Positions 12,210 through 53,278 of a DNA stretch of 59,491 nucleotides are shown here, in pieces (position 1 is the first letter of the stretch; the number at the start of each line of letters is the position of its first letter). The stretch comes from a virus. Lineage: Duplodnaviria; Caudoviricetes. The notes beneath the pieces are model-generated. The model ran no database searches. It saw nothing but the letters and a program-made list of their open reading frames with translations, and was not told the origin of the DNA. The position numbers and the translations under genes were made by a program. The stretch covers positions 1 to 59,491 of IMG/VR virus record IMGVR_UViG_3300049045_000044; one strand, written 5' to 3'.

Positions 12210-12426
12210 GCTTCACCTTACGGCCGGGCTTTTGCGCCGGCTTATTTTCTGTTTTGGGTGCCTCTACCACTGCCACCTCTGCCAGCGCAACGGCCGCATA
12301 AACCGCCAGGCCGCGTCCTACCAATGAAGCCGCCAGGTCATCGGGTAGTTCGGTCGTCTCTCCGGTCAACAAACGACGCGGCCCCCAGGAGACAATTTCA
12401 TCCTGATTCATCACCACTGCTTTCAT
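12199..12426 (-). CDS. Small capsid-module protein
   Basis: 75 aa; GETTELPDDLAASLVGRGLA with a basic tail, typical of small genes after the capsid gene. Confidence 0.7.
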   Translation of the reverse strand: MKAVVMNQDEIVSWGPRRLLTGETTELPDDLAASLVGRGLAVYAAVALAEVAVVEAPKTENKPAQKPGRKVKRGR

Positions 12427-13583
12427 GCAAATACGCCTCCCTTTTCAAAGTGGGCTATATCGGTAATCGGTTGGCCGGCTACCGGCCGTAACTCGTCAAT
12501 GCCAAAACGTCCCTGATACTGGCCGGTTGGCCCTTCGCAAATCGGCCGGAAGCGGCAACTATTACAAGCGTCATTGGCCCGACTTGCCGCTATCTGATCA
12601 CAATGCAACCGCCGCGCCTTCTCCGCTCCACCCATTGCCATGACGTTGGCGGCCGGTACGCGGTTGGTTGCCTCTAGTGCCCATTCCCAGGGGTCATACT
12701 GTGTCTGGTAAAAATTGATACAGTTGCGGGCGAAGCCATGTTCAGCGGCCACGCAGAAGGGAAAATAACGAACGTTGACCTCCCAACCGGCCGCCTCTGC
12801 AATCTGTACTGCCTCACCTACGAACGGGGCAAGGTCACGAAGGGGTGATTGAAAATCAATCTCCGGCCGTTCTGACCAGGCAAAGAATGGGTTGAATTGG
12901 ATCATGTTCCATACGGTTGGCTCTCGATGATCACTGAGCCACCGCGCCAACGTGGGTAATTCCTGGTAATTGAAATTCTGTAGAGTCGTGTTGAAACGAA
13001 CGGGACGATGACAGTGAGCGAGGTTATCCGTGAGGCGTTGCCAGCCACCGCTACCCCGGCCGCGATGGTCAACCACCGTGTTGTCATGGCCCGACTCCAT
13101 CCCGTGTAAAGAGATGAGCCAGTCTTCGAGGCCAGCATCTTCCACTCCCTTGACCAGTTCGGCCGTATTATTCTGTCCGTGCGTGATAATCGTAGGCAAT
13201 AGCCCAATGTTGCGACAATGGTGAATCAGGGCCTCTAGTTGCGGCCGGCGGCCGTCTTTACTCTTTGGCCCGTAAATCGTTGCCTCTCCGCCGCTAATGT
13301 CGCAGTATTGAAGGTTGTAGTAGTGCCGGAACATATTAGCGCGGGCAATGAGGGTATTGAGGTCGTAAAAGACAAGGTTATCTTGGAAGCTGTAATAGCA
13401 CATCTTACAAGCCTTATCGCAAGGCCCTCCGTTTACCCCCATGAATAGCCAGCCCCGGCGCGTAGGGTGTTTGTGGTCGTGTTTGTAGAGCGGCCGTGCG
13501 GTAAGCGATTCCGGCCGTATCTTGGGGGTAAGAGGTACGGCCGCTCGTAGTTGCACATCATCAATCAGCAGCAGATTATTCAT
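12423..13583 (-). CDS. Radical SAM enzyme with C-terminal auxiliary-cluster (SPASM/twitch-like) cysteines
   Basis: CDKACKMCYY (CX3CX2C), SGGEAT, ISLHG, PFC and CNSCRFRPICEG. Confidence 0.92.
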   Translation of the reverse strand: MNNLLLIDDVQLRAAVPLTPKIRPESLTARPLYKHDHKHPTRRGWLFMGVNGGPCDKACKMCYYSFQDNLVFYDLNTLIARANMFRHYYNLQYCDISGGEATIYGPKSKDGRRPQLEALIHHCRNIGLLPTIITHGQNNTAELVKGVEDAGLEDWLISLHGMESGHDNTVVDHRGRGSGGWQRLTDNLAHCHRPVRFNTTLQNFNYQELPTLARWLSDHREPTVWNMIQFNPFFAWSERPEIDFQSPLRDLAPFVGEAVQIAEAAGWEVNVRYFPFCVAAEHGFARNCINFYQTQYDPWEWALEATNRVPAANVMAMGGAEKARRLHCDQIAASRANDACNSCRFRPICEGPTGQYQGRFGIDELRPVAGQPITDIAHFEKGGVFA

Positions 13584-20810: not shown

Positions 20811-20856
20811 AAACAAAAACCGGGCCACGAATCTAGTTAAGGATTCGTGGCCCGGT
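20811..20856 (-). terminator. Intrinsic terminator-like hairpin directly before the portal ATG
   Basis: 15-bp stem ACCGGGCCACGAATC/GATTCGTGGCCCGGT followed by TTTTGTTT on the minus strand. Confidence 0.7.
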
Positions 20857-23090: not shown

Positions 23091-23912
23091 ATGGGAAGAA
23101 ACACCCCGCCGAAAATCAAGACCTGTCCGCTTTGCGGTATTGAATTTACTCACCAGGGGAATGCCAAGAGATGCAAAGAGTGTCGCTTTAGGTGTTTGGA
23201 TTGTGGGGAGAAAAAGAAATACTACGGCAAATACTGCGGTCGTTGCAAGGACAAGCGCAGGGTCTACACCCGGCCGTGTAGCTATCCCGGCTGCACCAAA
23301 AAGATAATGGACAGGAACAAAACGGGCGTTTGCGAAGAACACCGCGATTACTCCAAGCAATCCCAAAACCTTAGAAAGAAGTTGGAGCGGCAGAGGAGCC
23401 ACCCCCAATATCCGCGCAATGAATTTACCCGCAAAAAGATTATCCCCGCCAAGTGCGTGGTTTGTGGTAAAGCCTTTTTGACATCTCACGACACTCTTAA
23501 ACAAGCCGAGAAAACCGGGAGCAGTCGGGTTTGTTCCTCCCGCTGTCAGGGGGTATGGGCGGCGAAGCATACCCCACGCAGAGACACCAGCATTGAGCGC
23601 AAGATAGAATCTGCCATTAAGGAGCGCGGGTGGAACTATCAAAAGCAAGTTCCTCTTTGCGGAGCAACCATTGTTGACTTTTACCTTCCAGACCACAGGA
23701 TTGTCATTTATTGCGACGGGACATTCTGGCATCAAACACCAGAGCGCAAGGCGAGTGACAAGCGACAAAACGCCATTCTCAAAAAGAGCAGGTATACCGT
23801 CTATCGCTTTGGGGAAGATGAAATCAATAAATCGCCTCATAGTTGCCTTGACAGGATCACGATTGAATCAAAACCGGTTCACCGCCAGTTGCATCTACCC
23901 ATCGCTGAATAG
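23091..23912 (+). CDS. Zinc-finger plus DUF559/Vsr-like PD-(D/E)XK endonuclease (homing-type)
   Basis: Multiple CxxC pairs; TSIE, IVDFYLP, IYCDGTFWH, D.RQN..L...Y.VYRF.E. Confidence 0.85.
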   Translation: MGRNTPPKIKTCPLCGIEFTHQGNAKRCKECRFRCLDCGEKKKYYGKYCGRCKDKRRVYTRPCSYPGCTKKIMDRNKTGVCEEHRDYSKQSQNLRKKLERQRSHPQYPRNEFTRKKIIPAKCVVCGKAFLTSHDTLKQAEKTGSSRVCSSRCQGVWAAKHTPRRDTSIERKIESAIKERGWNYQKQVPLCGATIVDFYLPDHRIVIYCDGTFWHQTPERKASDKRQNAILKKSRYTVYRFGEDEINKSPHSCLDRITIESKPVHRQLHLPIAE

Positions 23913-25268
23913 TGACAGCAACATATTTTGGCAATAGTTCTATGCCCAACCCCCGACGGCCGTTCGCCTGTGCAGCCATGATGGTTGTACCACTGCCGGA
24001 AAAGGGGTCAATCCATGCGTCCCCCTCGTCGGAATATGCCTTGATAAAAAACTCCGGTAACTGTGGGGGGAAGGCGGCCTCGTGTCCTCTTGTTTCGTCA
24101 TTAGAAAATGATTTTATTACGTTTGACGGATAGGCCAAGCCGGGGGCGTATTCCTGCCCCCCAAATATCCATGACGTATGCCCCTGTAATTTATTGGCGG
24201 CCTTTCCGTACTGTTTTTTACCCTGTTTACCCGCCCAATTGGTATTTCCTACGCCCGGCCCCCCAGGAATCGGAACGGAATCAGATTCATGTCTAACCGC
24301 CTCTGGCCTAAACTTAAAACCCTTTTGTGTGGCGGCGAAGTGGTAGACCGGCTCAAAACCGTTTTTGAAGCTATATTTAACCTGTCTCGGCACACCACTA
24401 CGCAACCAACAAAACTCGTCAACAAACGACCATTGCCACCGGCGAACCATAGCCGTCACCAGATCCGTTACATACAAACTGCGCTCCCCGTCTTCGGAGT
24501 GTGGCTTGATATTCAGAAAAAACGACCCGTCTTTCTCAATATGCTTCCTGGCGGTGTCTTGAACAAGCTCCCACCAGTCAACATATTCACCGGCCGGGAT
24601 GCCCCCATATTGCTCCTCCCGCTGCTCGGCATAGGGGGGGCTTGTAAATACTGAGTTCGCTTTTTTTACACCGGCCGCCCCCAATAGCCTTTCCCACGTA
24701 TCAGAATCCCGACAATCGCCGCAAATTAGAACGTTCCGGCCTAGTTGCCATGCCTGCCCCTGAGTGGTTTGATATTGCTCCATGAGGGCATCCGCCCTGT
24801 CAAATTGCGGTTCGGCATCGGCCGTTTCTTCTTCGCTCGTTGCACCTGTGCCGTCAAACATCAATTCGATTTCGGTCGGCTTGAACCAATCTCCTAAATC
24901 CAACCCGGCCGCTAAATCCATCTCAATAACGGCCGGGTCGAAGTCAATGCTAACCTGTGCGCTGCGATTCAGGGCATAGGCTAATTCCCTACCATCGGCC
25001 GTATCCAGGTCAATATCCGGCCGTCGAATGTAAACGGGTTTAGTGCCGTCCACGTCGATGACAATCGCCTCGGTAGCATCTAGTACGTCATGGGCAATCT
25101 CGGTTCTCAGGTTGCCGCCGATAATTTTATTGTTCTTATCCAGTGTGCCGGCCTCGGCATAACCGAACCGCTCCATTGACCGGCGAACCATGTACTCGCC
25201 CCGCTCTGAGTGCTTGTTGGCGTTCCTGGGGTCTTGCTCTATTGAGTCGAGAGGTACAATATCAGCCT

Positions 25269-25272
<4 letters not shown>
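23857..25272 (-). CDS. ParB-like N-terminal domain fused to beta-class N4/N6 DNA methyltransferase
   Basis: DPRNANKH...IIGGN.R; TSPPY; HEAAFP..LPEFFI; DPFSGSGTT. Confidence 0.9.
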
Positions 25273-26574
<1,302 letters not shown>

Positions 26575-28380: not shown

Positions 28381-28586
28381 TGCCCACAGACACCACCGAA
28401 TCACCCCCGGCCGTTCGCTTCCTGTTCATCCGTTTCAAGGCAACACCCCAGGAACGGGAGCGGCTCTACGCACGGGCAGAAGCGGCCGGTATGAGCGCAT
28501 CTGATTACATTCGCAGCAGAGTGGATATGGCTACGAGGGCCGAACGAGAGAAGGGAGTGAAGGAGGGTAACGATGGCGATAAATAA
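28380..28586 (+). CDS. Ribbon-helix-helix (MobC/CopG-like) regulator
   Basis: FIRFKATPQERERLYARAEAAGMSASDYIR. Confidence 0.8.
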   Translation: MPTDTTESPPAVRFLFIRFKATPQERERLYARAEAAGMSASDYIRSRVDMATRAEREKGVKEGNDGDK

Positions 28587-29166
28587 CTATCAGGTAAGCG
28601 TGCCAGAAGGACAATCGGGCAACTGGAAGGTAGAGCGGTTTACCGTTACCGGGCGCGATGCTGAAATCGAACGTATCCGCGCTATGTTCAGCGGCCGTCG
28701 CGTGCCAGAAGGGACATATACCCGCCTGATGCGCCGGGGACAGGTTATTATGAGTGATACGCCCGATGAAATTAGAGATCATCTTGAACCCATACGCCGG
28801 GCAAGAGGAAGCGTATTGATTAATGGGTTGGGATTGGGCGTTGTCCTACAGGCAGCACTCAATAAGCCAGAGGTTCGGCATGTAACGGTAGTTGAAAAGT
28901 CGCCCGATGTTATCAAGCTGGTTGCTTGGCACTATTACGAACGGTTTGGCTATGATCGCCTGACAGTTGTCGAAGGAGATGCATTTGATTGGAAAATACC
29001 AAAGGGCGCACGTTTTGACGTGGTATGGCATGATATTTGGGACAATCTTTGCGCCGATAACTTAAGGGAAATGAGTGTCTTGCATCGGAAGTTCGGCCGT
29101 AGGACAGACTGGCAAGGTTCATGGGGCCGCGAGTTGTGCCGGCGATACGCAAGGAGTGGATACTAA
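28573..29166 (+). CDS. Class I SAM-dependent methyltransferase (spermidine-synthase-like fold)
   Basis: MSDTPDE, VLINGLGLG, VTVVEKS, GDAF, FDVVWHDIW. Confidence 0.85.
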   Translation: MAINNYQVSVPEGQSGNWKVERFTVTGRDAEIERIRAMFSGRRVPEGTYTRLMRRGQVIMSDTPDEIRDHLEPIRRARGSVLINGLGLGVVLQAALNKPEVRHVTVVEKSPDVIKLVAWHYYERFGYDRLTVVEGDAFDWKIPKGARFDVVWHDIWDNLCADNLREMSVLHRKFGRRTDWQGSWGRELCRRYARSGY

Positions 29167-30373: not shown

Positions 30374-31218
30374 CTTGCGTCTATTTAGCCCCTTGTGCCG
30401 ATTGTTACGCCTTCCTATGCCGCATCTATCCCCCAAAGCCCTTGCGCGCCCAAATAGCCCGGTTGTGGGGCAGGTCTACGGCCGTGTCCCTCTGCCGCTT
30501 GCCGACAATATGCGCCATTGGTGTGTAGGCGGTCGTGAACCACCACGCGCGGCGGCGGGTAGCGGGCGGCCCGGTAGAGTTTGTAGAGGCTGAATAGCGC
30601 GACGGCCGTGCCCAGAAAAATAAAGCTGGCTAGTAATTTCGTGGTGTCTCCAATAGTGATAACTGATAGGGCGCGTCCGGCCTAATGCAATGCGGACTGA
30701 ACCAAATACACTCCTGTTCATTATTGCCGTTTTTACCACTTTTCCTTTGATTACCATAGCCCCCGTTTGTTTTCCAGCGATAACATTCCCAGGTGTCAGG
30801 CATAAAGCGGCCGTGTTCTCTCTCGTAGCCGCAAAGGGCAATCAACATCAGAGGGTTGTCGCCATTCGCCAATGCCCACTCGCGCACGGCCGTAGACACC
30901 GATAAATCATCATGGGCGTACAATCCCCCCTGTCGGGAAGCATCGGCATTATAGGGAGGATCTAATAGCACGGCCGTTTTTCCCGTCAGGTACGTAACTG
31001 AGGGGCCTGTAACTTGAGTCCAATCACCGCAAACAACCCGTACATAGCGCAACCTATCGGATAATGCCCGCATATAGGCGTACAAGTCTTGACGTTCGGT
31101 TGGGGGCCGTTTCAAGATACCCTGTTCGCCGCTGTGCTGCGGCAAATCTACCCGCTGGTTGATTGGTTTTCGTTGTGCCTGTATCCCCTGATGCGGCCGT
31201 AGGTGCGGCCGTTGCTCC

Positions 31219-31251
31219 TGGGGTGCAGGGAATTAATCGCCCTGCACCCCA
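31219..31251. repeat. 12-bp inverted repeat around a 9-nt loop containing the stop codon
   Basis: TGGGGTGCAGGG-AATTAATCG-CCCTGCACCCCA. Confidence 0.95.
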
Positions 31252-31283
31252 CTCAATCGCGGCACTTGTCGGGATGGCATATT

Positions 31284-31315
31284 CAGGGCGGCGCGGAGGA
31301 CTCCGCGCCGCCCTG
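31284..31315. repeat. 15-bp perfect inverted repeat with 2-nt spacer
   Basis: CAGGGCGGCGCGGAG-GA-CTCCGCGCCGCCCTG. Confidence 0.95.
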
Positions 31316-31942
31316 CCATCTCCGGTATCTGTTGTGACGGCCGGTTGATGCCCATGCCGGCGTCTCCCAAGTGGGGTCTCTGTAAAGAGACCCGGCTTGC
31401 CGTCTCTTTAATCTCGCAAAAACCCGACCCGATCCAGCAGCTCTGTCCCCATGCGTACCATCCTGCCCGCTTTACATCGTAGTAATCAGGATCGCTCCTC
31501 ACCCGCTCGATAAAACCATACGGGCTATCCGGGTTGTAGGAATTGCGCCAGCCCAAACGGTAGGCCGCTTCTAGTTCTGGTGTGTTGATTTCGGCCGGTA
31601 ACTCTTTTGGTTCAGGTACATAACCGACAAGCCAAGCATGGCGGGCGGATAAATCGGCATGGTTGACGGGATTATCGGCATAGTGGGCCACGCCATCGGG
31701 ATCGTGTTTGATTGCCCTGAACAGATTGGCGATAAAGGCAAAAGCATCGTTTACCGTTTCAATACGGTAGGGATTGCCAACGGTAAAGCGGCCGTCCTCT
31801 ACGCTCCAATACGGTCGTTGCCACAGTGTAGCCAAGCTGCCCATGAACGGATCAACTAGGTTCATCGGATCGCCAAAGCGTTGCCAGATGGCGGGCGCAA
31901 CGCTTGACTTTCCACCGTAGTAGGGAATAGGGGCGCGTAGTT

Positions 31943-32560
31943 TCACTCCCTCACCCCCTGCGCCAACAACTCCGCCCGCAACACGGCCGTATCTTCACCG
32001 GACAGGACGCGCCGCACATCGGGCGTACTTTCTATCTGATTCCCCCACGAATCCCATCCCGGCCGTGTGCGCCGGGCGAACAATTCAAGGTACGGGCCAG
32101 ATAGCGTCTCTGCATAATGGTAAATGCTTTCGGGCTTGCGACTGTGGTAAAGGTTGGGAGATAGCAAGCCAATAAAGCCGTTGGGCGGGGCCTTCACCTT
32201 GCCCCGCCGTGCAATGAGCAATGGCTCACTTGCTCCACGCGCCCAAAATCCGATGCCATACGGTACGCTTACCTCGATTTGCCCCCATAGATTAGGCGAT
32301 ACATCCGTAACCTTAATCCAGGGAAAGCCCGTCACATACTTAAAGCCCCATGCGGAGATCAACTGCATGGCCTCTGTCATTTGCGACCATGTTGTCCATA
32401 GAAGCAAAACGGCATTATCCTGGGCCATGCCCGCGACCGGAAGGGCGCAAAGTTCTTTGATTGACATAGTCGGGTATATCAGTTCGGCCGCGCCCCTGCT
32501 CCCAGCATTGTCATATTGCCAGGGCGGATCGGCCAAAATCACACTATATTTGTTTTTCAT
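31943..32560 (-). CDS. MT-A70 family adenine methyltransferase
   Basis: ILADPPW, YPTM, LLLWTT, WGFKY, HSRKP, YLELFAR..RPGWDSWGNQ. Confidence 0.93.
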   Translation of the reverse strand: MKNKYSVILADPPWQYDNAGSRGAAELIYPTMSIKELCALPVAGMAQDNAVLLLWTTWSQMTEAMQLISAWGFKYVTGFPWIKVTDVSPNLWGQIEVSVPYGIGFWARGASEPLLIARRGKVKAPPNGFIGLLSPNLYHSRKPESIYHYAETLSGPYLELFARRTRPGWDSWGNQIESTPDVRRVLSGEDTAVLRAELLAQGVRE

Positions 32561-32901
32561 AGTCTCAACTCCACTTGCCGAGCGCACTTCAAGCACGGCC
32601 GCTTCCCTTCCGGCGGCTTAGGATAGCCAATCGCGTCATAACTCATTAGGGAGTGGCAGCTATAGTCATACGCGCCGCTTGACCCTACGGCCGGAAAGAC
32701 TAGGTGGTATACGTCCGTTTTACTGTTGGCAACATACCAGTAGCCAGCCTCGTCACGCTTACCCCATGTCTCCAACCGTCGCGGCAAGATACGGCCGTTG
32801 TTCATTATCTGCCGCAGGCACGACCAGCAAACGAGTACCGGCGTGTGCCTGAACGTGTACGAGATATGGGCGGGATTGGTGCAGTAGGTGCAGGCATTCA
32901 T
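32557..32901 (-). CDS. Cys-rich hypothetical protein
   Basis: CxxC pairs; ATGA-coupled. Confidence 0.6.
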   Translation of the reverse strand: MNACTYCTNPAHISYTFRHTPVLVCWSCLRQIMNNGRILPRRLETWGKRDEAGYWYVANSKTDVYHLVFPAVGSSGAYDYSCHSLMSYDAIGYPKPPEGKRPCLKCARQVELRL

Positions 32902-34162: not shown

Positions 34163-34702
34163 TCAATCAAACAACAATCTCTCTAATTCCAACTGATTCG
34201 TTTCCAGTCCATAAAGCCGATAGTTTTTCGGATGCACGGCCGGGATACCTTCACCGCTCTCTATTTCCCATCGGTACTTTTCAACCTCGTAAATATCTAG
34301 CTCCTCTCGTTTCCTCGTCCCGTTCCACTGTTGCGGCCGTGAAGCGTCATACTGTTTCCAGCCTGCGCCGCGCAACGATGCGCCCGACTCCGTTTTGAGC
34401 GTGTAGGTAATCATTTTACGGCCGCCCATTGCTTTCCAGGCCCGCCATGACGCGCCGTACAGAAACGAATTAACACCCTTCTGGGCATCAGGCAGGGCGC
34501 ACAGTCTCAATACCTCGGCCGTATAGCCATTGTCCAGTGCGCGGGCGATAGGACGGCCAACGATAACCACCGCTTGCAGTACGTTGCCCGACAATGCGCC
34601 AATAGCGAACAATGCACCCGTTACCCGGCCGTTGTGCCGGTGGTGTTTGTCTACGACCTCATTGGCGTATTTAATCGGGATAGGTATGGCGGTTAGTTTC
34701 AT
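34163..34702 (-). CDS. XF1762-family protein (Mom-related GNAT fold, putative DNA modification)
   Basis: ANEVVDKHHRH, VGRPIARALD, EVLRLC, SFLYGA, ITYTL..ESGASLRGAGW. Confidence 0.8.
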   Translation of the reverse strand: MKLTAIPIPIKYANEVVDKHHRHNGRVTGALFAIGALSGNVLQAVVIVGRPIARALDNGYTAEVLRLCALPDAQKGVNSFLYGASWRAWKAMGGRKMITYTLKTESGASLRGAGWKQYDASRPQQWNGTRKREELDIYEVEKYRWEIESGEGIPAVHPKNYRLYGLETNQLELERLLFD

Positions 34703-36263: not shown

Positions 36264-36674
36264 CTAGTGTCCCAACACCTTAACAATCTGCTCTCTGGGT
36301 TGCCACTTCACCGACCACTGCTTAAACATCTTTAGGTGTTCGACCGTCCGGCCGTGCAGTTCAGAAAGTGCTTCATCCCTACAGCCCCATTCGCCATTGA
36401 CCTGTTTAACGACAAGCTGGCTATCGGTTAGGCATTGAATGGTAAAAGCGGCCGGGCTTAACCCCGCATGTTGACACTTGGCTATGATGTCACCCAAAGC
36501 AACTATCATAGTCATGTACTGTGCAACATTATTTGTACCCCGGCCGAAATGACATCTTTCTATTCGCCTATTTCCTGTCCTAGTTTCTATCTGATAGCTT
36601 CCGCTCATGGGGCCGGGATTACCAGAACATGCCCCATCACTAATGATTGTGTAATCAGCTTTTGTTGCTTCCAT
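36264..36674 (-). CDS. Ribonuclease HI-like protein
   Basis: SDGACSGNPG, TNNVAQY, TDSQLVVKQVNG.W. Confidence 0.85.
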   Translation of the reverse strand: MEATKADYTIISDGACSGNPGPMSGSYQIETRTGNRRIERCHFGRGTNNVAQYMTMIVALGDIIAKCQHAGLSPAAFTIQCLTDSQLVVKQVNGEWGCRDEALSELHGRTVEHLKMFKQWSVKWQPREQIVKVLGH

Positions 36675-37468
36675 TACTCAACCCATGTTTGATGAGCAAC
36701 TACTTTGGAGATGTTGCGCCGCGACACCCCAAACATCTCCCCTAAGTATTCTTGCGTGTATCTTCCCGTGCTGTGTAGCCCCCTTATTTGCCTGACCTTG
36801 TCCCAGGTTAGTTTTGCCCCTACGTGATTCTCTCCACAATAGTCACGCTTTTCATAATTCAGATTGTCGGTTTTCCAGGCAATACCCCTAACTATTCCTG
36901 AGATGGTATTTTGAGCTACGCCGAATCGCCTTGCTAGGGAACTCTGGCTAAATTCTTTGGTGCTATATAGCCTTCTGATTTCTTCAACTTGACCACTGTC
37001 TAGTTTAGAAAATCCATTATCCTCCCCCCTTAATGCCCTGTGCCTGTTCTTATTATCCCTGTCTGCGATATTATCTAGCTGGCTACCCAAGAATAGATGA
37101 TCTGGATTAACGCATGAAGGATTGTCACACTTATGGAGGACACAAGTCTTTTGCCCGGCCGTCTTTTCTGGTATTTCCCCCCTGTACAATTGCCACGATA
37201 CTCTGTGGGTTAGCTGCCCCTTCTTCCCCCCGACAGAGATTGATCCATAGCCGTTTTTGTCCTTAGTTCCTGTCCAGTTCCAACAATTTGAATTGGCATA
37301 CTCTGAGTATGGGCCGTCCTTGTCAATGGATGCTTCAAAGCGGGTACTTATATCCACCATTCTGGCACGGCCGGCACATTCCCTTCCGCAATAACGGCCG
37401 TTACCATGTTTTACCCTCGATGGGCCGACGTTGAATTGCTTTCCACAAAAACCACAGTTGACTTTCAT
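36674..37468 (-). CDS. HNH homing endonuclease with two C-terminal HTH repeats
   Basis: CWNWTG..GYG, HRVSW, VLHKCDNPSCVNPDHL.LG...NI.D; two KL....V..IR HTH units. Confidence 0.92.
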   Translation of the reverse strand: MKVNCGFCGKQFNVGPSRVKHGNGRYCGRECAGRARMVDISTRFEASIDKDGPYSEYANSNCWNWTGTKDKNGYGSISVGGKKGQLTHRVSWQLYRGEIPEKTAGQKTCVLHKCDNPSCVNPDHLFLGSQLDNIADRDNKNRHRALRGEDNGFSKLDSGQVEEIRRLYSTKEFSQSSLARRFGVAQNTISGIVRGIAWKTDNLNYEKRDYCGENHVGAKLTWDKVRQIRGLHSTGRYTQEYLGEMFGVSRRNISKVVAHQTWVE

Positions 37469-45045: not shown

Positions 45046-45111
45046 CCAGCGTTATTGACCCGGCCGTTTCGGCTGCGCGTGGGGCCGAAACGGCCGGGTG
45101 GAGGTAGTAAA

Positions 45112-47557: not shown

Positions 47558-48901
47558 ATGAATTTCGGTTCTCTCTTTTCAGGCATAGGCGGATTTGATT
47601 TAGGCTTTGAACGCGCCGGTATGCGTTGCCTGTGGCAAGCCGAAATAGAGCAACCAGCACGGGGGATATTGAGCCGCCATTTCCCACAGTCAAGGATTTA
47701 CAATGATATTAGAGCAATCAGTTACCGAATCGGAAAAGGATGGCGGCGATACTTCCATCCCGCGCCAGTTGACCTTGTTTGCGGCGGATTCCCCTGCCAG
47801 GACTTATCAGTGGCCGGCGGCCGCAAGGGATTGGCTGGAAGCAGAAGTGGACTATGGTTTGAGTTCTATCGCCTTATTACAGAGTCTAGGCCGCGATGGG
47901 TTGTTATCGAAAACGTCCCCGGCCTATTATCCAGTAACAAAGGACAGGATTTTGCCGTTATCCTTCGCGGGTTGGTCGAGTGCGGGTATGGCGTGTCCTG
48001 GCGGATACTTGACGCTCAATATTTCGGACTGGCCCAACGCCGCCGCCGTGTGTTCATTGTCGCAAGTCTTGGAGACGGCCGTTCCGCAAGCGTACTTTTT
48101 GAGTCCGAAGGCAGCGCGCGGGATTCTCCGCAGAGCAGAAAAGCGCGGCCGGGTGTTGCCGCCGTCTCTGGCACACTCTCTGCAAATGCTGGCGGGACAA
48201 GTAGACCTGCCGGACAAGCAAACGAGTTAGACTTTTGTATCCCCGTTGGTAGCCTTCAAGCCCATAGCAAGCGACATGGACACGCCATGACTACGCAACA
48301 GGCGGCCGAAAATGGGCATCTTTTGGCAGTTTGGAATAATGGGCAAGGCGAACCGAATGGAGAAGAAAGCGAGATTGCCTATACCCTTGAACCGCAAGCC
48401 AATCAGGGCGTAGCCTTTGGCGGAAACAACACCAGCGGAAGTATAGACGTAGCGGGGGGCCGGTGCAATAACCGCCGCCGCAACGATTTTGAGAGCGAAA
48501 CATTTATAGCCAATGCTTTTAACGGCTATACGGGTGGGGCCGACGATAACGATGCACAAGCCAACCACCTTGTAACTGACAGAATCCGAGAATGGGTAGA
48601 CGAACCGGATAGGATCAGGGCGATACAAAATGATGGGCATTCATCAACCGCTCAGGAGCATGTGTATTTTAAGCCTAATGCCGTTGTAAATTCTCTGGAA
48701 CATACCCGGCCACCAAAGCTGATTGATTCTGGTGTTCGACGACTAACACCGATAGAGTGCGAACGGCTACAGGGATTCCCCGATGGTTGGAGTGATGGGC
48801 AATCCGATTCAGTCCGCTATCGCCAGTTAGGTAACGCGGTGGCTGTGCCAGTGGCAGGGTGGATAGCGCGGCGCATTTTGATGGTAGAGGGAGAGGACTA
48901 G
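47558..48901 (+). CDS. DNA cytosine-5 methyltransferase (alpha polypeptide)
   Basis: SLFSGIGG, GGFPCQD, ENV, QRRRRVF, RRLTP.ECERLQGFP, QLGNAV. Confidence 0.97.
   Translation: MNFGSLFSGIGGFDLGFERAGMRCLWQAEIEQPARGILSRHFPQSRIYNDIRAISYRIGKGWRRYFHPAPVDLVCGGFPCQDLSVAGGRKGLAGSRSGLWFEFYRLITESRPRWVVIENVPGLLSSNKGQDFAVILRGLVECGYGVSWRILDAQYFGLAQRRRRVFIVASLGDGRSASVLFESEGSARDSPQSRKARPGVAAVSGTLSANAGGTSRPAGQANELDFCIPVGSLQAHSKRHGHAMTTQQAAENGHLLAVWNNGQGEPNGEESEIAYTLEPQANQGVAFGGNNTSGSIDVAGGRCNNRRRNDFESETFIANAFNGYTGGADDNDAQANHLVTDRIREWVDEPDRIRAIQNDGHSSTAQEHVYFKPNAVVNSLEHTRPPKLIDSGVRRLTPIECERLQGFPDGWSDGQSDSVRYRQLGNAVAVPVAGWIARRILMVEGED
47703..48230 (+). CDS. Alternative-frame (+1) beta polypeptide nested in the C5 methylase
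   Basis: 175 aa with own AAGGA RBS; CSLSQVLE..VPQ.YFLSPKAARGILRRAEKRG..LP resembles the M.EcoHK31I/M.EaeI beta subunit. Confidence 0.75.
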   Translation: MILEQSVTESEKDGGDTSIPRQLTLFAADSPARTYQWPAAARDWLEAEVDYGLSSIALLQSLGRDGLLSKTSPAYYPVTKDRILPLSFAGWSSAGMACPGGYLTLNISDWPNAAAVCSLSQVLETAVPQAYFLSPKAARGILRRAEKRGRVLPPSLAHSLQMLAGQVDLPDKQTS

Positions 48902-53180: not shown

Positions 53181-53278
53181 ACAAACGACAAAGCGGCCGC
53201 AATTGGGGGACGGCCGCTTTGTCTTCGTGTTGGTTCCGAGGAGTACGGAACCGGGAGGGAGTCACAAATATTGTAGCA
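53181..53278 (-). ncRNA. Candidate convergent sRNA with anti-SD-like loop
   Basis: TGCTACAAT extended -10; hairpin GGTTCCG-TACTCCT-CGGAACC; 13-bp terminator stem 53187-53223. Confidence 0.45.

What the first reader, a model, noticed from the sequence alone, without database searches (positions are those of the whole stretch)
31219..31251. Candidate micro-inversion ON/OFF switch inside a DNA adenine methylase
Seen: the two methylase ORFs are one frame broken by a single TAA. That TAA lies in a 9-nt loop between perfect 12-bp inverted repeats. The coding strand reads GTG CAG GGC GAT TAA TTC CCT (VQGD*FP). Reverse-complementing only the loop gives GTG CAG GGA ATT AAT CGC CCT (VQGINRP), which removes the stop and recreates the GINRP motif found in an earlier repeat of the same protein (GMGINRP). 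The stop therefore most likely arose by loop inversion and is reversible by the same event. No invertase is evident, so replication template switching at the hairpin is the likely route. Inference: recombinase-free phase variation of the phage methylome as a bet-hedge between restriction systems and methyl-directed nucleases.
Basis: partly seen in the sequence, partly recalled or inferred. Interest (0 to 1): 0.85.

Follow-up and report, generated by a model that had tools for sequence, protein, structure and literature searches.

The report
Hairpin-loop flip broke a phage methylase
A soil phage's DNA adenine methylase gene is cut short by a stop codon in the loop of a perfect DNA hairpin, most likely because the loop was flipped by a replication slip; nothing shows that it works as a reversible on/off switch.

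Summary
On the minus strand, 31946..30630 is one Dam-like methylase frame broken by a single TAA (31235-31233). The TAA lies in the 9-nt loop of a perfect 12-bp inverted repeat (31219-31251). The plus strand reads the same stretch as GVQGINRPAP.

In 163 homologous genes, INR is among the commonest tripeptides at this position of the linker repeat (48 of 313 units). The loop was therefore very probably inverted, and the inversion probably created the stop.

The switch interpretation is not supported. The only near-identical relative is a 438-aa protein, matched by one contig from another study. It keeps the loop in the same orientation and is intact through two point changes in the loop (TAA/TCA, TTC/TGC). 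No flipped allele was found. The arms are not conserved in homologues.

The linker is predicted disordered. Across the family it carries sporadic long perfect palindromes: 10 in 36 kb of linker against 1 in 130 kb of catalytic domains. These look like footprints of replication template switching.

Best reading: a mutational accident in a template-switch-prone linker. This is a known kind of mutation (inverted-repeat spacer inversion) in a new setting. The TAA allele could not be confirmed in reads.

The parts
30630..31946 (-). Dam-like (D12-class) N6-adenine DNA methyltransferase gene. It is one 438-codon frame broken by a single TAA at codon 238.
   Evidence: Translation. Homologues are single proteins of about 300-470 aa, many carrying PF02086. 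P0123 is the intact 438-aa allele. The predicted structure matches E. coli Dam, DpnM and T4 Dam.
31233..31946 (-). N-terminal part, 237 aa plus the TAA. It holds the AdoMet-binding side (DPFMGSLA) and a helical domain ending in WIGSGFC.
   Evidence: pLDDT high for residues 1-172.
30630..31232 (-). The rest of the same frame, 200 codons plus the natural stop. It holds the second half of the linker and the catalytic domain with DPPY (residues 329-332).
   Evidence: (D329 P330 P331 Y332 invariant in 73 sequences).
31107..31430 (-). Repeat linker, residues about 173-280. It holds degenerate copies of the family unit (R/K)(Q)LPHLGxAGxG(I/V)(N/H)R(P/K/Q) and is predicted disordered.
   Evidence: Alignment A1. 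pLDDT is below 50 for residues 173-175, 178-194 and 196-280. Unit census.
31219..31230 (.). Left arm of the 12-bp perfect inverted repeat.
31231..31239 (.). The 9-nt loop. On the - strand it reads (GG)C GAT TAA TT(C), and on the + strand (GG)A ATT AAT CG(C). Positions 31231 and 31234 are the only differences seen in run X2 and in protein P0123.
31233..31235 (-). In-frame TAA stop (codon 238).
31240..31251 (.). Right arm of the 12-bp perfect inverted repeat.
31284..31315 (.). A second perfect palindrome in the same linker, 15+2+15 nt. It codes AGRRGV followed by its 'mirror peptide' LRAAL, and is about 5 codons longer than a normal unit.
   Evidence: -21.9 kcal/mol, z -7.4. The same motif-plus-mirror pattern is seen in homologues.
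31368..31399 (.). Imperfect hairpin (14-nt arms, 86% complementary, 4-nt loop) at the start of the linker.
   Evidence: -10.1 kcal/mol, z -4.2.
31943..32596 (-). Upstream MT-A70-family methyltransferase gene. Its stop overlaps the start of the Dam-like gene by 4 nt.
   Evidence: Pfam PF05063, E 1.6e-28. phrog_359, E 1.1e-63. Coordinates.

Best explanation
The gene is a phage Dam-like adenine methyltransferase. Its two folded halves are joined by a disordered linker of about 110 residues, built from degenerate copies of a 17-aa unit (...LPHLGxAGxG-[I/V][N/H]R-P/K...).

In the third unit, the DNA for GVQG and for PAPQ forms a perfect 12-bp inverted repeat around the three codons that should read I-N-R. 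During replication the nascent strand switched templates at this hairpin (intermolecular template switch, also called IR-spacer inversion). The loop was copied in reverse complement. ATT AAT CG became GAT TAA TT or TG, which put a TAA in frame and truncated the enzyme before its catalytic DPPY domain.

This is a mutational accident in a linker that is unusually prone to template-switch events. It is not the output of a dedicated switch. The near-identical intact allele (GDSCP) most likely descends from the same inverted state through a point change of the stop (TAA to TCA).

What is shown: the anatomy, the single break, the intact allele, the family motif, and the enrichment of palindromes in the linker.

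What is inferred: that an inversion occurred, its mechanism, and the order of events.
For: 1. Anatomy: one frame, one TAA, lying in the loop of a perfect 12+9+12 hairpin.

2. The mirror reading fits the family motif. In 313 repeat units from 163 homologous linkers, the tripeptide after GxG is [IVM][NH]R in 181. It is INR in 48, MNR in 0, DSC in 0, and starts with D in 11. The window's + strand reads GVQG-INR-PAP in register with ...PRL....PHL. By my hand calculation with uniform codons, a random loop reads [IVM][NH]R with probability about 7e-4.

3. 7 of the 9 loop bases differ between the two orientations. One inversion therefore explains what would otherwise take many substitutions (sequence).

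4. The linker is predicted disordered (pLDDT <50 over residues 173-280). It should tolerate such events.

5. Family-wide footprints of the same process:
- Perfect hairpins with arms >=12 number 10 in 36,159 nt of linker (7 of 163 loci). They number 0 in 65,456 nt of the N domain, 1 in 64,617 nt of the C domain, and 26 in 439,551 nt of flanks.
- Against codon-shuffled linkers: 7 observed versus a mean of 0.1 (max 1 of 100 shuffles) for arms >=12, and 17 versus 1.56 for arms >=10.
- The arms are the motif DNA next to its own reverse complement. Arms reach 29 nt in L151, 21 in L054 and 20 in L137.
- Only 10 of 163 linkers have a strong hairpin, and the remainder look like shuffles (mean score 6.99 versus 6.43). 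So the hairpins are sporadic and recent, not a conserved element.
- In four cyanobacterial copies that are 87-97% identical, one hairpin differs at 3 of 17 pairs on both sides at once. This is the signature of arm homogenisation.

6. Literature, passages read. IR spacer inversion by template switching occurs in yeast coding DNA on perfect arms >9 bp and has flipped back and forth (PMC8604942). Template switching creates perfect stems and inverts loops (PMC8794818).

7. An intact allele exists. It is identical at 436 of 438 positions and differs only at codons 238 and 239. The same two base differences appear in a contig of run X2, whose other four contigs show 0 differences.
Against: - No sequence with the loop in the other orientation was found. 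The inversion is inferred only from the protein motif, not from a sister sequence.
- The nearest relative beyond the two alleles is only 45-48% identical, so the ancestral state cannot be reconstructed.
- The order of events is open. If the ancestor read GMNRP, the inversion gave the intact GDSCP, and the stop arose later by C>A and G>T changes. That is a common class of mutation (from my own knowledge). L130 has one unit reading GRGMN, so M is not impossible.
- Two differences in 9 nt, with none elsewhere, needs a hypermutable loop, selection or error. X2 depth is only 2.4, and A>C and T>G are typical Illumina miscalls (recalled, not checked here).
- The TAA allele is not confirmed by independent reads. 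The X1 contigs stop at 30980 and resume at 31327.
- The enrichment of palindromes might reflect an unknown function rather than mutation plus tolerance.
Confidence: 0.62

Rival explanations
1. One reading: the hairpin is a recombinase-free, reversible ON/OFF contingency switch. The loop flips back and forth by template switching often enough to keep both methylase states in a phage population, as a bet-hedge against restriction and methyl-directed nucleases.
For: - The two states have identical perfect arms, so the reverse event is mechanistically as feasible as the forward one (sequence).
- Spacer flips in both directions are reported on perfect IRs in yeast genes (PMC8604942, passages).
- The phage invests heavily in DNA modification, with at least 5 methyltransferase-like genes and a Mom-like gene.
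- The contigs of the deep run X1 break on both sides of the linker. This would fit local heterogeneity, but the tool states that a hole proves nothing.
Against: - No flipped allele appears in 3 data sets: the window, X2, and the 3-member protein cluster drawn from about 15 billion proteins.
- The only intact allele is intact through point changes in the same loop orientation.
- The arms are absent from viral contigs, and the hairpin is not conserved in 163 homologues.
- In homologues that have linker hairpins, all six longer loops that I read by eye (those of 12-20 nt) were in sense orientation.
- Only 1 of 176 homologous loci has an internal stop, and it is not in a hairpin.
- Template-switch rates in E. 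coli are orders of magnitude below classical phase variation (recalled, not checked here).
Confidence: 0.07
2. The inversion is old and was harmless, and the stop is a later ordinary nonsense mutation. The ancestor read G-M-N-R-P, the loop inversion gave the intact G-D-S-C-P allele (P0123, X2), and the window's lineage then took two point substitutions in the loop, one of which made TAA.
For: - The intact allele has the same loop orientation.
- The changes needed (C>A and G>T on the coding strand) are G:C>T:A transversions, a common class that is plausible in a single-stranded loop (my knowledge).
- M does occur once at this motif position in a homologue (GRGMN in L130).
Against: - MNR occurs in 0 of 313 units and INR in 48 of 313.
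- Under this order, the window's mirror reading would become the consensus INR by coincidence. The very substitution that makes the stop must also turn the mirror codon ATG into ATT.
Confidence: 0.17
3. Artefact: one of the two alleles does not exist. Either the TAA/TTC bases in the window or the TCA/TGC bases in X2 and P0123 are systematic sequencing or assembly errors at a hairpin.
For: - Both differences lie in the hairpin loop and nowhere else in about 965 nt.
- X2 depth is 2.4, and the tool warns that a difference in one contig under depth 5 may be an error.
- X2 and the contig behind P0123 may not be independent.
- The TAA allele is seen only in the record itself.
Against: - The window-like population has depth of about 38 in X1 on both sides of the gap, so a consensus error is unlikely.
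- The DSC allele was produced by two different assembly pipelines.
- The hairpin and its orientation are shared by both data sets, so the inverted loop itself is not an artefact.
- By my reasoning, a de Bruijn assembler cannot invert a 9-nt loop between 12-nt arms at k >= 21. I ran no test of this.
Confidence: 0.09
4. The stop is not a loss of function. Either the ribosome reads through or bypasses the TAA in the hairpin (as in T4 gene 60), or the two halves are made separately and assemble into an active split enzyme.
For: - The stop lies in a stable stem-loop.
- The break falls in a disordered linker between two folded halves.
- Split methyltransferases are known (recalled).
- IMG called a 113-aa ORF downstream (P0122).
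Against: - By eye, I found no in-frame matching take-off and landing codon pair. The only nearby GAT is out of frame (sequence printed).
- No clear Shine-Dalgarno sequence precedes the TTG at 31145.
- P0122 starts inside motif IV and lacks the preceding helix.
- TAA also ends 9 of the 31 long ORFs that I listed by hand, and the capsid and terminase genes are uninterrupted. TAA is therefore not reassigned.
- The intact allele shows that the gene is normally one protein.
Confidence: 0.04

Closest known systems
Inverted-repeat spacer (hairpin-loop) inversion by DNA polymerase template switching. Described for yeast coding genes (PMC8604942) and for rRNA and microRNA hairpins (PMC8794818). Minute hairpin inversions in chloroplast DNA and quasipalindrome mutations in E. 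coli and phage T4 are recalled from memory.
   Same: Perfect arms longer than 9 bp, a short spacer replaced by its exact reverse complement, and arms unchanged. No recombinase is needed, and the event is reversible in principle. It is accompanied in the family by arm homogenisation and de novo perfect stems.
   Different: The spacer here is 9 nt, against 2-5 bp of substitutions in the yeast cases. Here the event creates a nonsense codon. The yeast study removed gene sets with premature stops before analysis (passage). The host here is a phage. The ancestral orientation is inferred from a protein repeat motif, not from a sister sequence.
Phase-variable DNA methyltransferases (phasevarions), which switch by simple-sequence-repeat slippage in mod or hsdM, or by hsdS inversion through recombination. 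Seen in search listings and abstract starts only (PMC7394358, PMC11475388, PMC4948785).
   Same: A DNA methyltransferase whose reading frame is open or closed by a local repeat-mediated DNA change.
   Different: There is no repeat tract and no duplicated hsdS. No recombinase was found in the 22 ORFs scanned. No coexisting states were observed and the architecture is not conserved. The expected rate is far lower.
Dam / D12-class (alpha-group) N6-adenine DNA methyltransferases: E. coli Dam, DpnM, T4 Dam.
   Same: The fold matches (Foldseek probability 1.00, target-normalised TM 0.56-0.61). The AdoMet-binding motif is N-terminal and DPPY is C-terminal. Relatives carry PF02086.
   Different: Sequence similarity is very remote. 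Pfam scores 21.4 bits, just under the cut-off of 22. TIGR00571 scores 22.6 against a cut-off of 114.85. phmmer finds no hit in PDB. A disordered, repeat-built linker of 30-140 residues is inserted between the halves, which the solved Dam enzymes (244-259 residues) lack.
Palindromic elements inserted in frame into coding genes, such as Rickettsia palindromic elements (recalled from memory).
   Same: Palindromic DNA is translated as part of a protein, in a region that tolerates it.
   Different: Here each palindrome is a local copy of the neighbouring coding DNA and differs in every lineage. It is not a mobile element with a common sequence.

Membership tests
D12-class / Dam-like N6-adenine DNA methyltransferase (PF02086, TIGR00571) | Profile score at or above the curated cut-off | tested here: not met
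   For the read-through protein, PF02086 scores 21.4 bits against a cut-off of 22 (E 2.3e-4, N-terminal 9-86 only). Neither half alone gives a hit. TIGR00571 scores 22.6 against 114.85. Many 40-48% identical homologues carry a precomputed PF02086 hit. phrog_56 'DNA methyltransferase' scores E 1.9e-12.
D12-class / Dam-like N6-adenine DNA methyltransferase (PF02086, TIGR00571) | N-terminal AdoMet-binding glycine motif and C-terminal DPPY catalytic motif, in alpha-group order | tested here: met
   DPFMGSLA lies at residues 32-39 and DPPY at 329-332. F34, G36, D329, P330, P331 and Y332 are invariant in 73 sequences. The motif names are recalled.
D12-class / Dam-like N6-adenine DNA methyltransferase (PF02086, TIGR00571) | Dam fold | tested here: met
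   The AF2 model has mean pLDDT 74.3 and pTM 0.71. The top Foldseek PDB hits are E. coli Dam (4rtj_A, E 1.3e-5, probability 1.00), DpnM (2dpm) and T4 Dam (1yfj).
D12-class / Dam-like N6-adenine DNA methyltransferase (PF02086, TIGR00571) | Adenine-N6 methylation of a defined DNA site | not testable with these tools
   This needs expression of the intact allele and methylome sequencing.
IR-spacer inversion by template switching | Perfect inverted-repeat arms (>9 bp) flanking a short spacer | tested here: met
   12-nt arms, 100% complementary, with a 9-nt spacer.
IR-spacer inversion by template switching | The spacer is the exact reverse complement of the spacer in the ancestor or a sister lineage, with arms unchanged | tested here: inconclusive
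   No sister with the other orientation was found. The inference rests on the mirror reading INR matching the family unit (48 of 313 units; direct readings DSC 0).
IR-spacer inversion by template switching | Other template-switch footprints at the locus or in its family (de novo perfect stems, arm homogenisation) | tested here: met
   A 15+2+15 palindrome lies in the same linker. There are 10 perfect hairpins with arms >=12 in 36 kb of homologous linkers against 1 in 130 kb of the domains. 3 of 17 pairs change on both sides among close paralogues.
Phase-variable methyltransferase / invertible switch | Both states present in one population, or among close relatives | tested here: not met
   The window, X2 and P0123 all have the same loop orientation. 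The protein cluster has only 3 members and none is flipped. Raw reads were not available: both runs were laid as contigs, and X1 has a hole over the site. So absence at low frequency is not shown.
Phase-variable methyltransferase / invertible switch | Dedicated switching machinery (a repeat tract, or a recombinase with its sites) | tested here: not met
   I saw no simple-sequence tract at the site in the sequence. Of the 22 ORFs scanned against PHROGs or Pfam, none matched a recombinase, integrase or invertase family. Not all ORFs of the window were scanned.
Phase-variable methyltransferase / invertible switch | Switch architecture conserved in homologues | tested here: not met
   The arms pattern gave 0 matches in viral contigs. 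Only 10 of 163 homologous linkers have any strong hairpin, and these sit at different places with different sequences.
Phase-variable methyltransferase / invertible switch | High, measurable forward and reverse switching rate | not testable with these tools
   This needs a fluctuation or reporter assay, or deep amplicon sequencing of a clonal lysate.

The most novel reading that the evidence does not exclude
The repeat linker of this Dam-like phage methylase family is a template-switch hot spot that keeps creating, homogenising and flipping perfect hairpins. The 12+9+12 hairpin in this phage would be a low-rate, recombinase-free contingency locus. Its loop can flip between a sense (INR) and a nonsense (D-stop) reading, giving large phage populations a standing mixture of methylase-ON and methylase-OFF genomes.
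Probability: 0.07. Interest if true: 0.8.

Novelty: new member of a known kind. Interest (0 to 1): 0.4.

Why it matters
This is a clean natural example of a single hairpin-mediated replication error knocking out a gene by turning three sense codons into a stop. The event would be invisible to anyone who scores mutations base by base: 7 of 9 bases change at once.

It also shows a second point. The disordered, Gly/Arg/Pro/Ala-rich repeat linker of a widespread family of phage adenine methylases accumulates long perfect palindromes ('mirror peptides'). Their density is about 36 times that in the folded domains of the same genes.

That makes the family a convenient natural system for studying template-switch mutagenesis in phage replication. 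It is also a caution for annotation pipelines, which here call two or three ORFs for one gene.

If the loop really flipped at a useful rate, it would be a new recombinase-free route to methylome heterogeneity in phages. The present evidence does not support that.

Tried and rejected
Looking for close relatives:
- Megablast of the gene against 50,697 phage records gave no match. tblastn there gave 3 distant hits.
- The search for related loci with the protein gave 3 loci in viral contigs (30-43% identity) and 13 in metagenome contigs (<=43%). None was close.
- The arms pattern with an N loop gave 0 matches in viral contigs. A 40-nt exact stretch of the gene also gave 0.
- The DNA of the 19,364-nt contig encoding P0123 could not be obtained.

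Reads. Both runs were served as Logan contigs, not raw reads, so orientation counts were impossible.
- X1's contigs end at 30980 and resume at 31327. I considered reading this as heterogeneity (branch points at 30981 and 31326, and the 32-nt palindrome at k=31). The tool states that a hole proves nothing, so I do not count it as evidence.

A templating donor for the two loop differences. A search of the window for the loop 12-mer with up to 2 mismatches gave 3 matches, fewer than the chance mean of 6.5. I found no donor.

Recoding. Bypass and readthrough were rejected on the sequence and because the intact allele exists.

A conserved functional hairpin (regulatory RNA or DNA element). This was rejected as the main reading because most linkers (153 of 163) are no more self-complementary than codon shuffles.

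De Bruijn assembly artefact. This was rejected by reasoning only, with no test.

Literature. No paper describing hairpin-loop micro-inversion as a phase-variation mechanism of a methyltransferase turned up in searches. These cover open-access full text only, and supplements are closed. I read passages of PMC8794818, PMC8604942 and PMC5941160. For the other papers I saw only listing lines and abstract starts.

Tools not used: complex prediction, the protein-atlas search and the search of protein representatives.
Full report
**What is in the sequence**

The window is a linear IMG/VR virus record of 59,491 bases, estimated 62% complete. It encodes a terminase large subunit, a portal and a major head protein.

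On the + strand, 31219-31230 (TGGGGTGCAGGG) and 31240-31251 (CCCTGCACCCCA) are a perfect 12-nt inverted repeat around the 9-nt loop AATTAATCG.

The gene lies on the - strand. From GTG at 31946 to the stop at 30630 there is one frame of 438 codons, interrupted once by TAA at 31235-31233. It reads ...PRLSGVQGD*FPAPQEQRPHL....

Because the arms are self-complementary, the + strand reads the same stretch as it would read with the loop inverted: GVQGINRPAPH.

The hairpin is not a chance feature:
- The window holds 5 perfect hairpins with arms >=12 and loop <=20. Forty Markov-simulated sequences gave a mean of 0.025.
- Two of the five lie within 100 nt of each other in this gene. The other is a 15+2+15 palindrome at 31284-31315.
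- As single-stranded DNA the two fold at -15.2 and -21.9 kcal/mol. In each case 0 of 200 shuffles fold as well.

**What the gene is**

Neither half alone hits Pfam. The read-through protein misses PF02086 narrowly, at 21.4 bits against a cut-off of 22.

A search of 5.8 billion proteins gave 5,747 hits with E <= 0.001 among the 8,000 candidates scored. The best are 45-48% identical, single-chain, about 300-470 aa, and many carry PF02086.

A model built on 73 sequences, with the intact allele P0123 first, has mean pLDDT 74.3. Its best structural matches are E. coli Dam, DpnM and T4 Dam. DPFMGSLA lies in the N half and the invariant DPPY in the C half.

So this is a remote Dam-like adenine methyltransferase, and the TAA removes its catalytic half.

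The gene directly upstream is an MT-A70 methyltransferase. The phage also has three more methyltransferase-like genes and a Mom-like gene.

**The linker**

Residues about 173-280 have pLDDT below 50. In alignments they vary in length and consist of copies of a unit such as RQLPHLGDAGRGINRPS. P0009 has about six near-perfect copies.

I mapped the linker in 163 non-redundant homologous loci, out of the 176 fetched from viral contigs, metagenome contigs and genome contigs. I dropped 13 loci because they were duplicates, had unmapped borders, or carried insertions larger than 1.5 kb.

In the 313 units these linkers contain, the three residues after GxG are:
- [IVM][NH]R in 181
- VNR in 64, VHR in 59, INR in 48
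- MNR in 0, DSC in 0
- D in first place in 11

The window's unit 3 reads VPRLSGVQG-D*F-PAPQEQRPHL directly and VPRLSGVQG-INR-PAPQEQRPHL in mirror. The mirror reading fits the unit and the direct one does not.

Seven of the nine loop bases differ between the orientations. A single inversion is therefore far more economical than point changes. I take an inversion of this loop as well supported, although it is inferred.

**The intact allele**

The 90%-identity cluster of the window's 237-aa product has three members:
- the two ORFs called on this record
- P0123, a 438-aa protein from a 19,364-nt contig

P0123 equals the read-through at 436 of 438 positions. It differs only at codon 238 (stop versus Ser) and codon 239 (Phe versus Cys).

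Independently laid contigs of run X2, from another study at depth 2.4, show the matching base differences. These are 31231 A>C and 31234 T>G, in a 151-nt contig that bridges the hairpin. X2's four other contigs show no difference.

So the sampled intact allele has the loop in the same orientation as the broken one. The sampled open/closed difference is TAA/TCA plus TTC/TGC, not an inversion.

In the mirror frame the two differences fall on third codon positions, GGA/GGC and ATT/ATG. The mirror of the intact allele therefore reads MNR.

**Order of events**

INR is frequent and MNR is unseen among 313 units. The ancestor therefore more likely read INR, and in that case the inversion itself created the stop.

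An economical path runs as follows:
1. A sense loop GGC ATT AAT CGC, with 13-bp arms and a 7-nt loop.
2. Inversion to G-D-stop-C.
3. One change in each lineage. TGC>TTC occurs in the window and is neutral because it lies behind the stop. TAA>TCA occurs in P0123 and restores the frame.

The alternative is an MNR ancestor, a harmless inversion to DSC, and a later nonsense mutation. It needs a coincidence but uses a commoner mutation class. I give it about 0.17.

In either order, restoration of the frame or its loss happened by point change. No re-inversion is seen.

**The family pattern**

Homologous linkers carry sporadic long perfect palindromes. Arm and loop lengths are:
- L151: 29/12
- L054: 21/18
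- L137: 20/1, 15/2 and 15/1
- L037 and L058: 17/17
- L093: 13/17
- L042: 12/20
- L130: four palindromes with arms of 9-10

In each case the DNA coding part of the unit (for example LPHVGDAGRG) lies beside its own reverse complement. That complement is translated as a 'mirror peptide' (PLPASIADVGE). The window's 15+2+15 palindrome (AGRRGV|LRAAL) is of this type.

Counts of perfect hairpins with arms >=12:

| Region | Hairpins | Length searched (nt) |
|---|---|---|
| Linker | 10 (in 7 of 163 loci) | 36,159 |
| N domain | 0 | 65,456 |
| C domain | 1 | 64,617 |
| Flanks | 26 | 439,551 |

Codon shuffling of the linkers gives a mean of 0.1 against 7 observed within strict linker bounds.

Most linkers show nothing. 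Only 10 of 163 have a best imperfect-hairpin score >=12, and the mean score is 6.99 against 6.43 for shuffles. The hairpins are therefore recent, lineage-specific events and not a conserved element.

Four copies in one cyanobacterial genome bin are 87-97% identical. They share one hairpin position. One type differs from the others at 3 of 17 pairs on both sides at once, and 17 of 500 shuffles reach this. That fits a single arm-homogenising event.

I read the loops of the six homologue hairpins with longer loops (12-20 nt) by eye, and all were in sense orientation. Only 1 of 176 loci (L008) has an internal stop, and it is not in a hairpin.

**Mechanism and comparison**

These footprints are de novo perfect stems, homogenised arms and an inverted loop. 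They are what template switching during replication is reported to produce in rRNA and microRNA genes (PMC8794818, passages) and in yeast coding genes. In yeast, spacer inversions occurred on perfect arms >9 bp, recurred, and flipped back (PMC8604942, passages).

The present case is a new member of that kind. It occurs in a phage gene, has a 9-nt spacer, and creates a nonsense codon.

Known phase-variable methyltransferases use repeat tracts or recombination between hsdS copies (listing and abstract starts only). None of their defining features was met here.

**Verdict**

- Observation: confirmed.
- Inversion as the origin of the stop: likely, about 0.6-0.7.
- Template switching as the route: plausible, and in line with the family pattern.
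- Reversible ON/OFF switch with a bet-hedging role: not supported, about 0.07.

Main caveats:
- No raw reads were available.
- The TAA allele is unconfirmed outside the record.
- The DSC allele rests on low depth plus one assembled contig that may not be independent.
- There is no outgroup closer than 48% identity.

Noticed in passing
window 31284-31315: A perfect 15+2+15 palindrome lies inside the same methylase linker. It codes AGRRGV followed by its mirror peptide LRAAL and makes this repeat unit about 5 codons longer than usual. It looks like an inverted duplication inserted by template switching.
   Followed up: partly
L151 1930-2259, L054 1903-2025, L137 1894-2268, L130 1903-2289 and other homologue loci: Homologous methylase linkers carry lineage-specific perfect palindromes with arms up to 29 nt ('motif plus mirror peptide'). 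Their density is about 36 times that of the folded domains of the same genes.
   Followed up: yes
window 23857-25296 (-), 28573-29166 (+), 31943-32596 (-), 34163-34702 (-), 47558-48901 (+): The phage is unusually rich in DNA-modification genes. It has a ParB-like/methyltransferase fusion, a small methyltransferase, an MT-A70 enzyme, a Mom-like protein and a large methyltransferase, in addition to the broken Dam-like gene. Losing one methylase may therefore cost little.
   Followed up: partly
window 30980/30981 and 31326/31327: Contigs of the deep run X1 (depth about 38) end at 30980 and restart at 31327, leaving the whole second half of the linker uncovered. This could reflect strain variants or the 32-nt palindrome breaking a k=31 graph. 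The tool warns that a hole proves nothing.
   Followed up: no
L016 603-2606 and L019 2001-3866: In two freshwater metagenome homologues, the methylase match is split by an insertion of more than 1 kb between query residues 97 and 151, in the same frame. This could be an intron, an intein or a mobile insertion.
   Followed up: no
L008 nt 626; L092 1821-1875: L008 has an internal TAG in its methylase gene that is not in a hairpin. L092 (a Cystobacter genome) has a frameshift between residues 121 and 134. These are the only other broken copies among the 176 loci.
   Followed up: partly
window 20819-20856, 45058-45099, 53187-53223: Three other perfect hairpins have arms of 13-16 nt and lie at or between gene ends. 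The one at 20819 is followed by a T-run on the - strand. They are probably transcription terminators.
   Followed up: no
window 12423-13583 (-), 36674-37468 (-): A radical-SAM domain protein (phrog_27238) lies among the structural genes, and an HNH endonuclease with an HTH domain lies near the replication genes.
   Followed up: no
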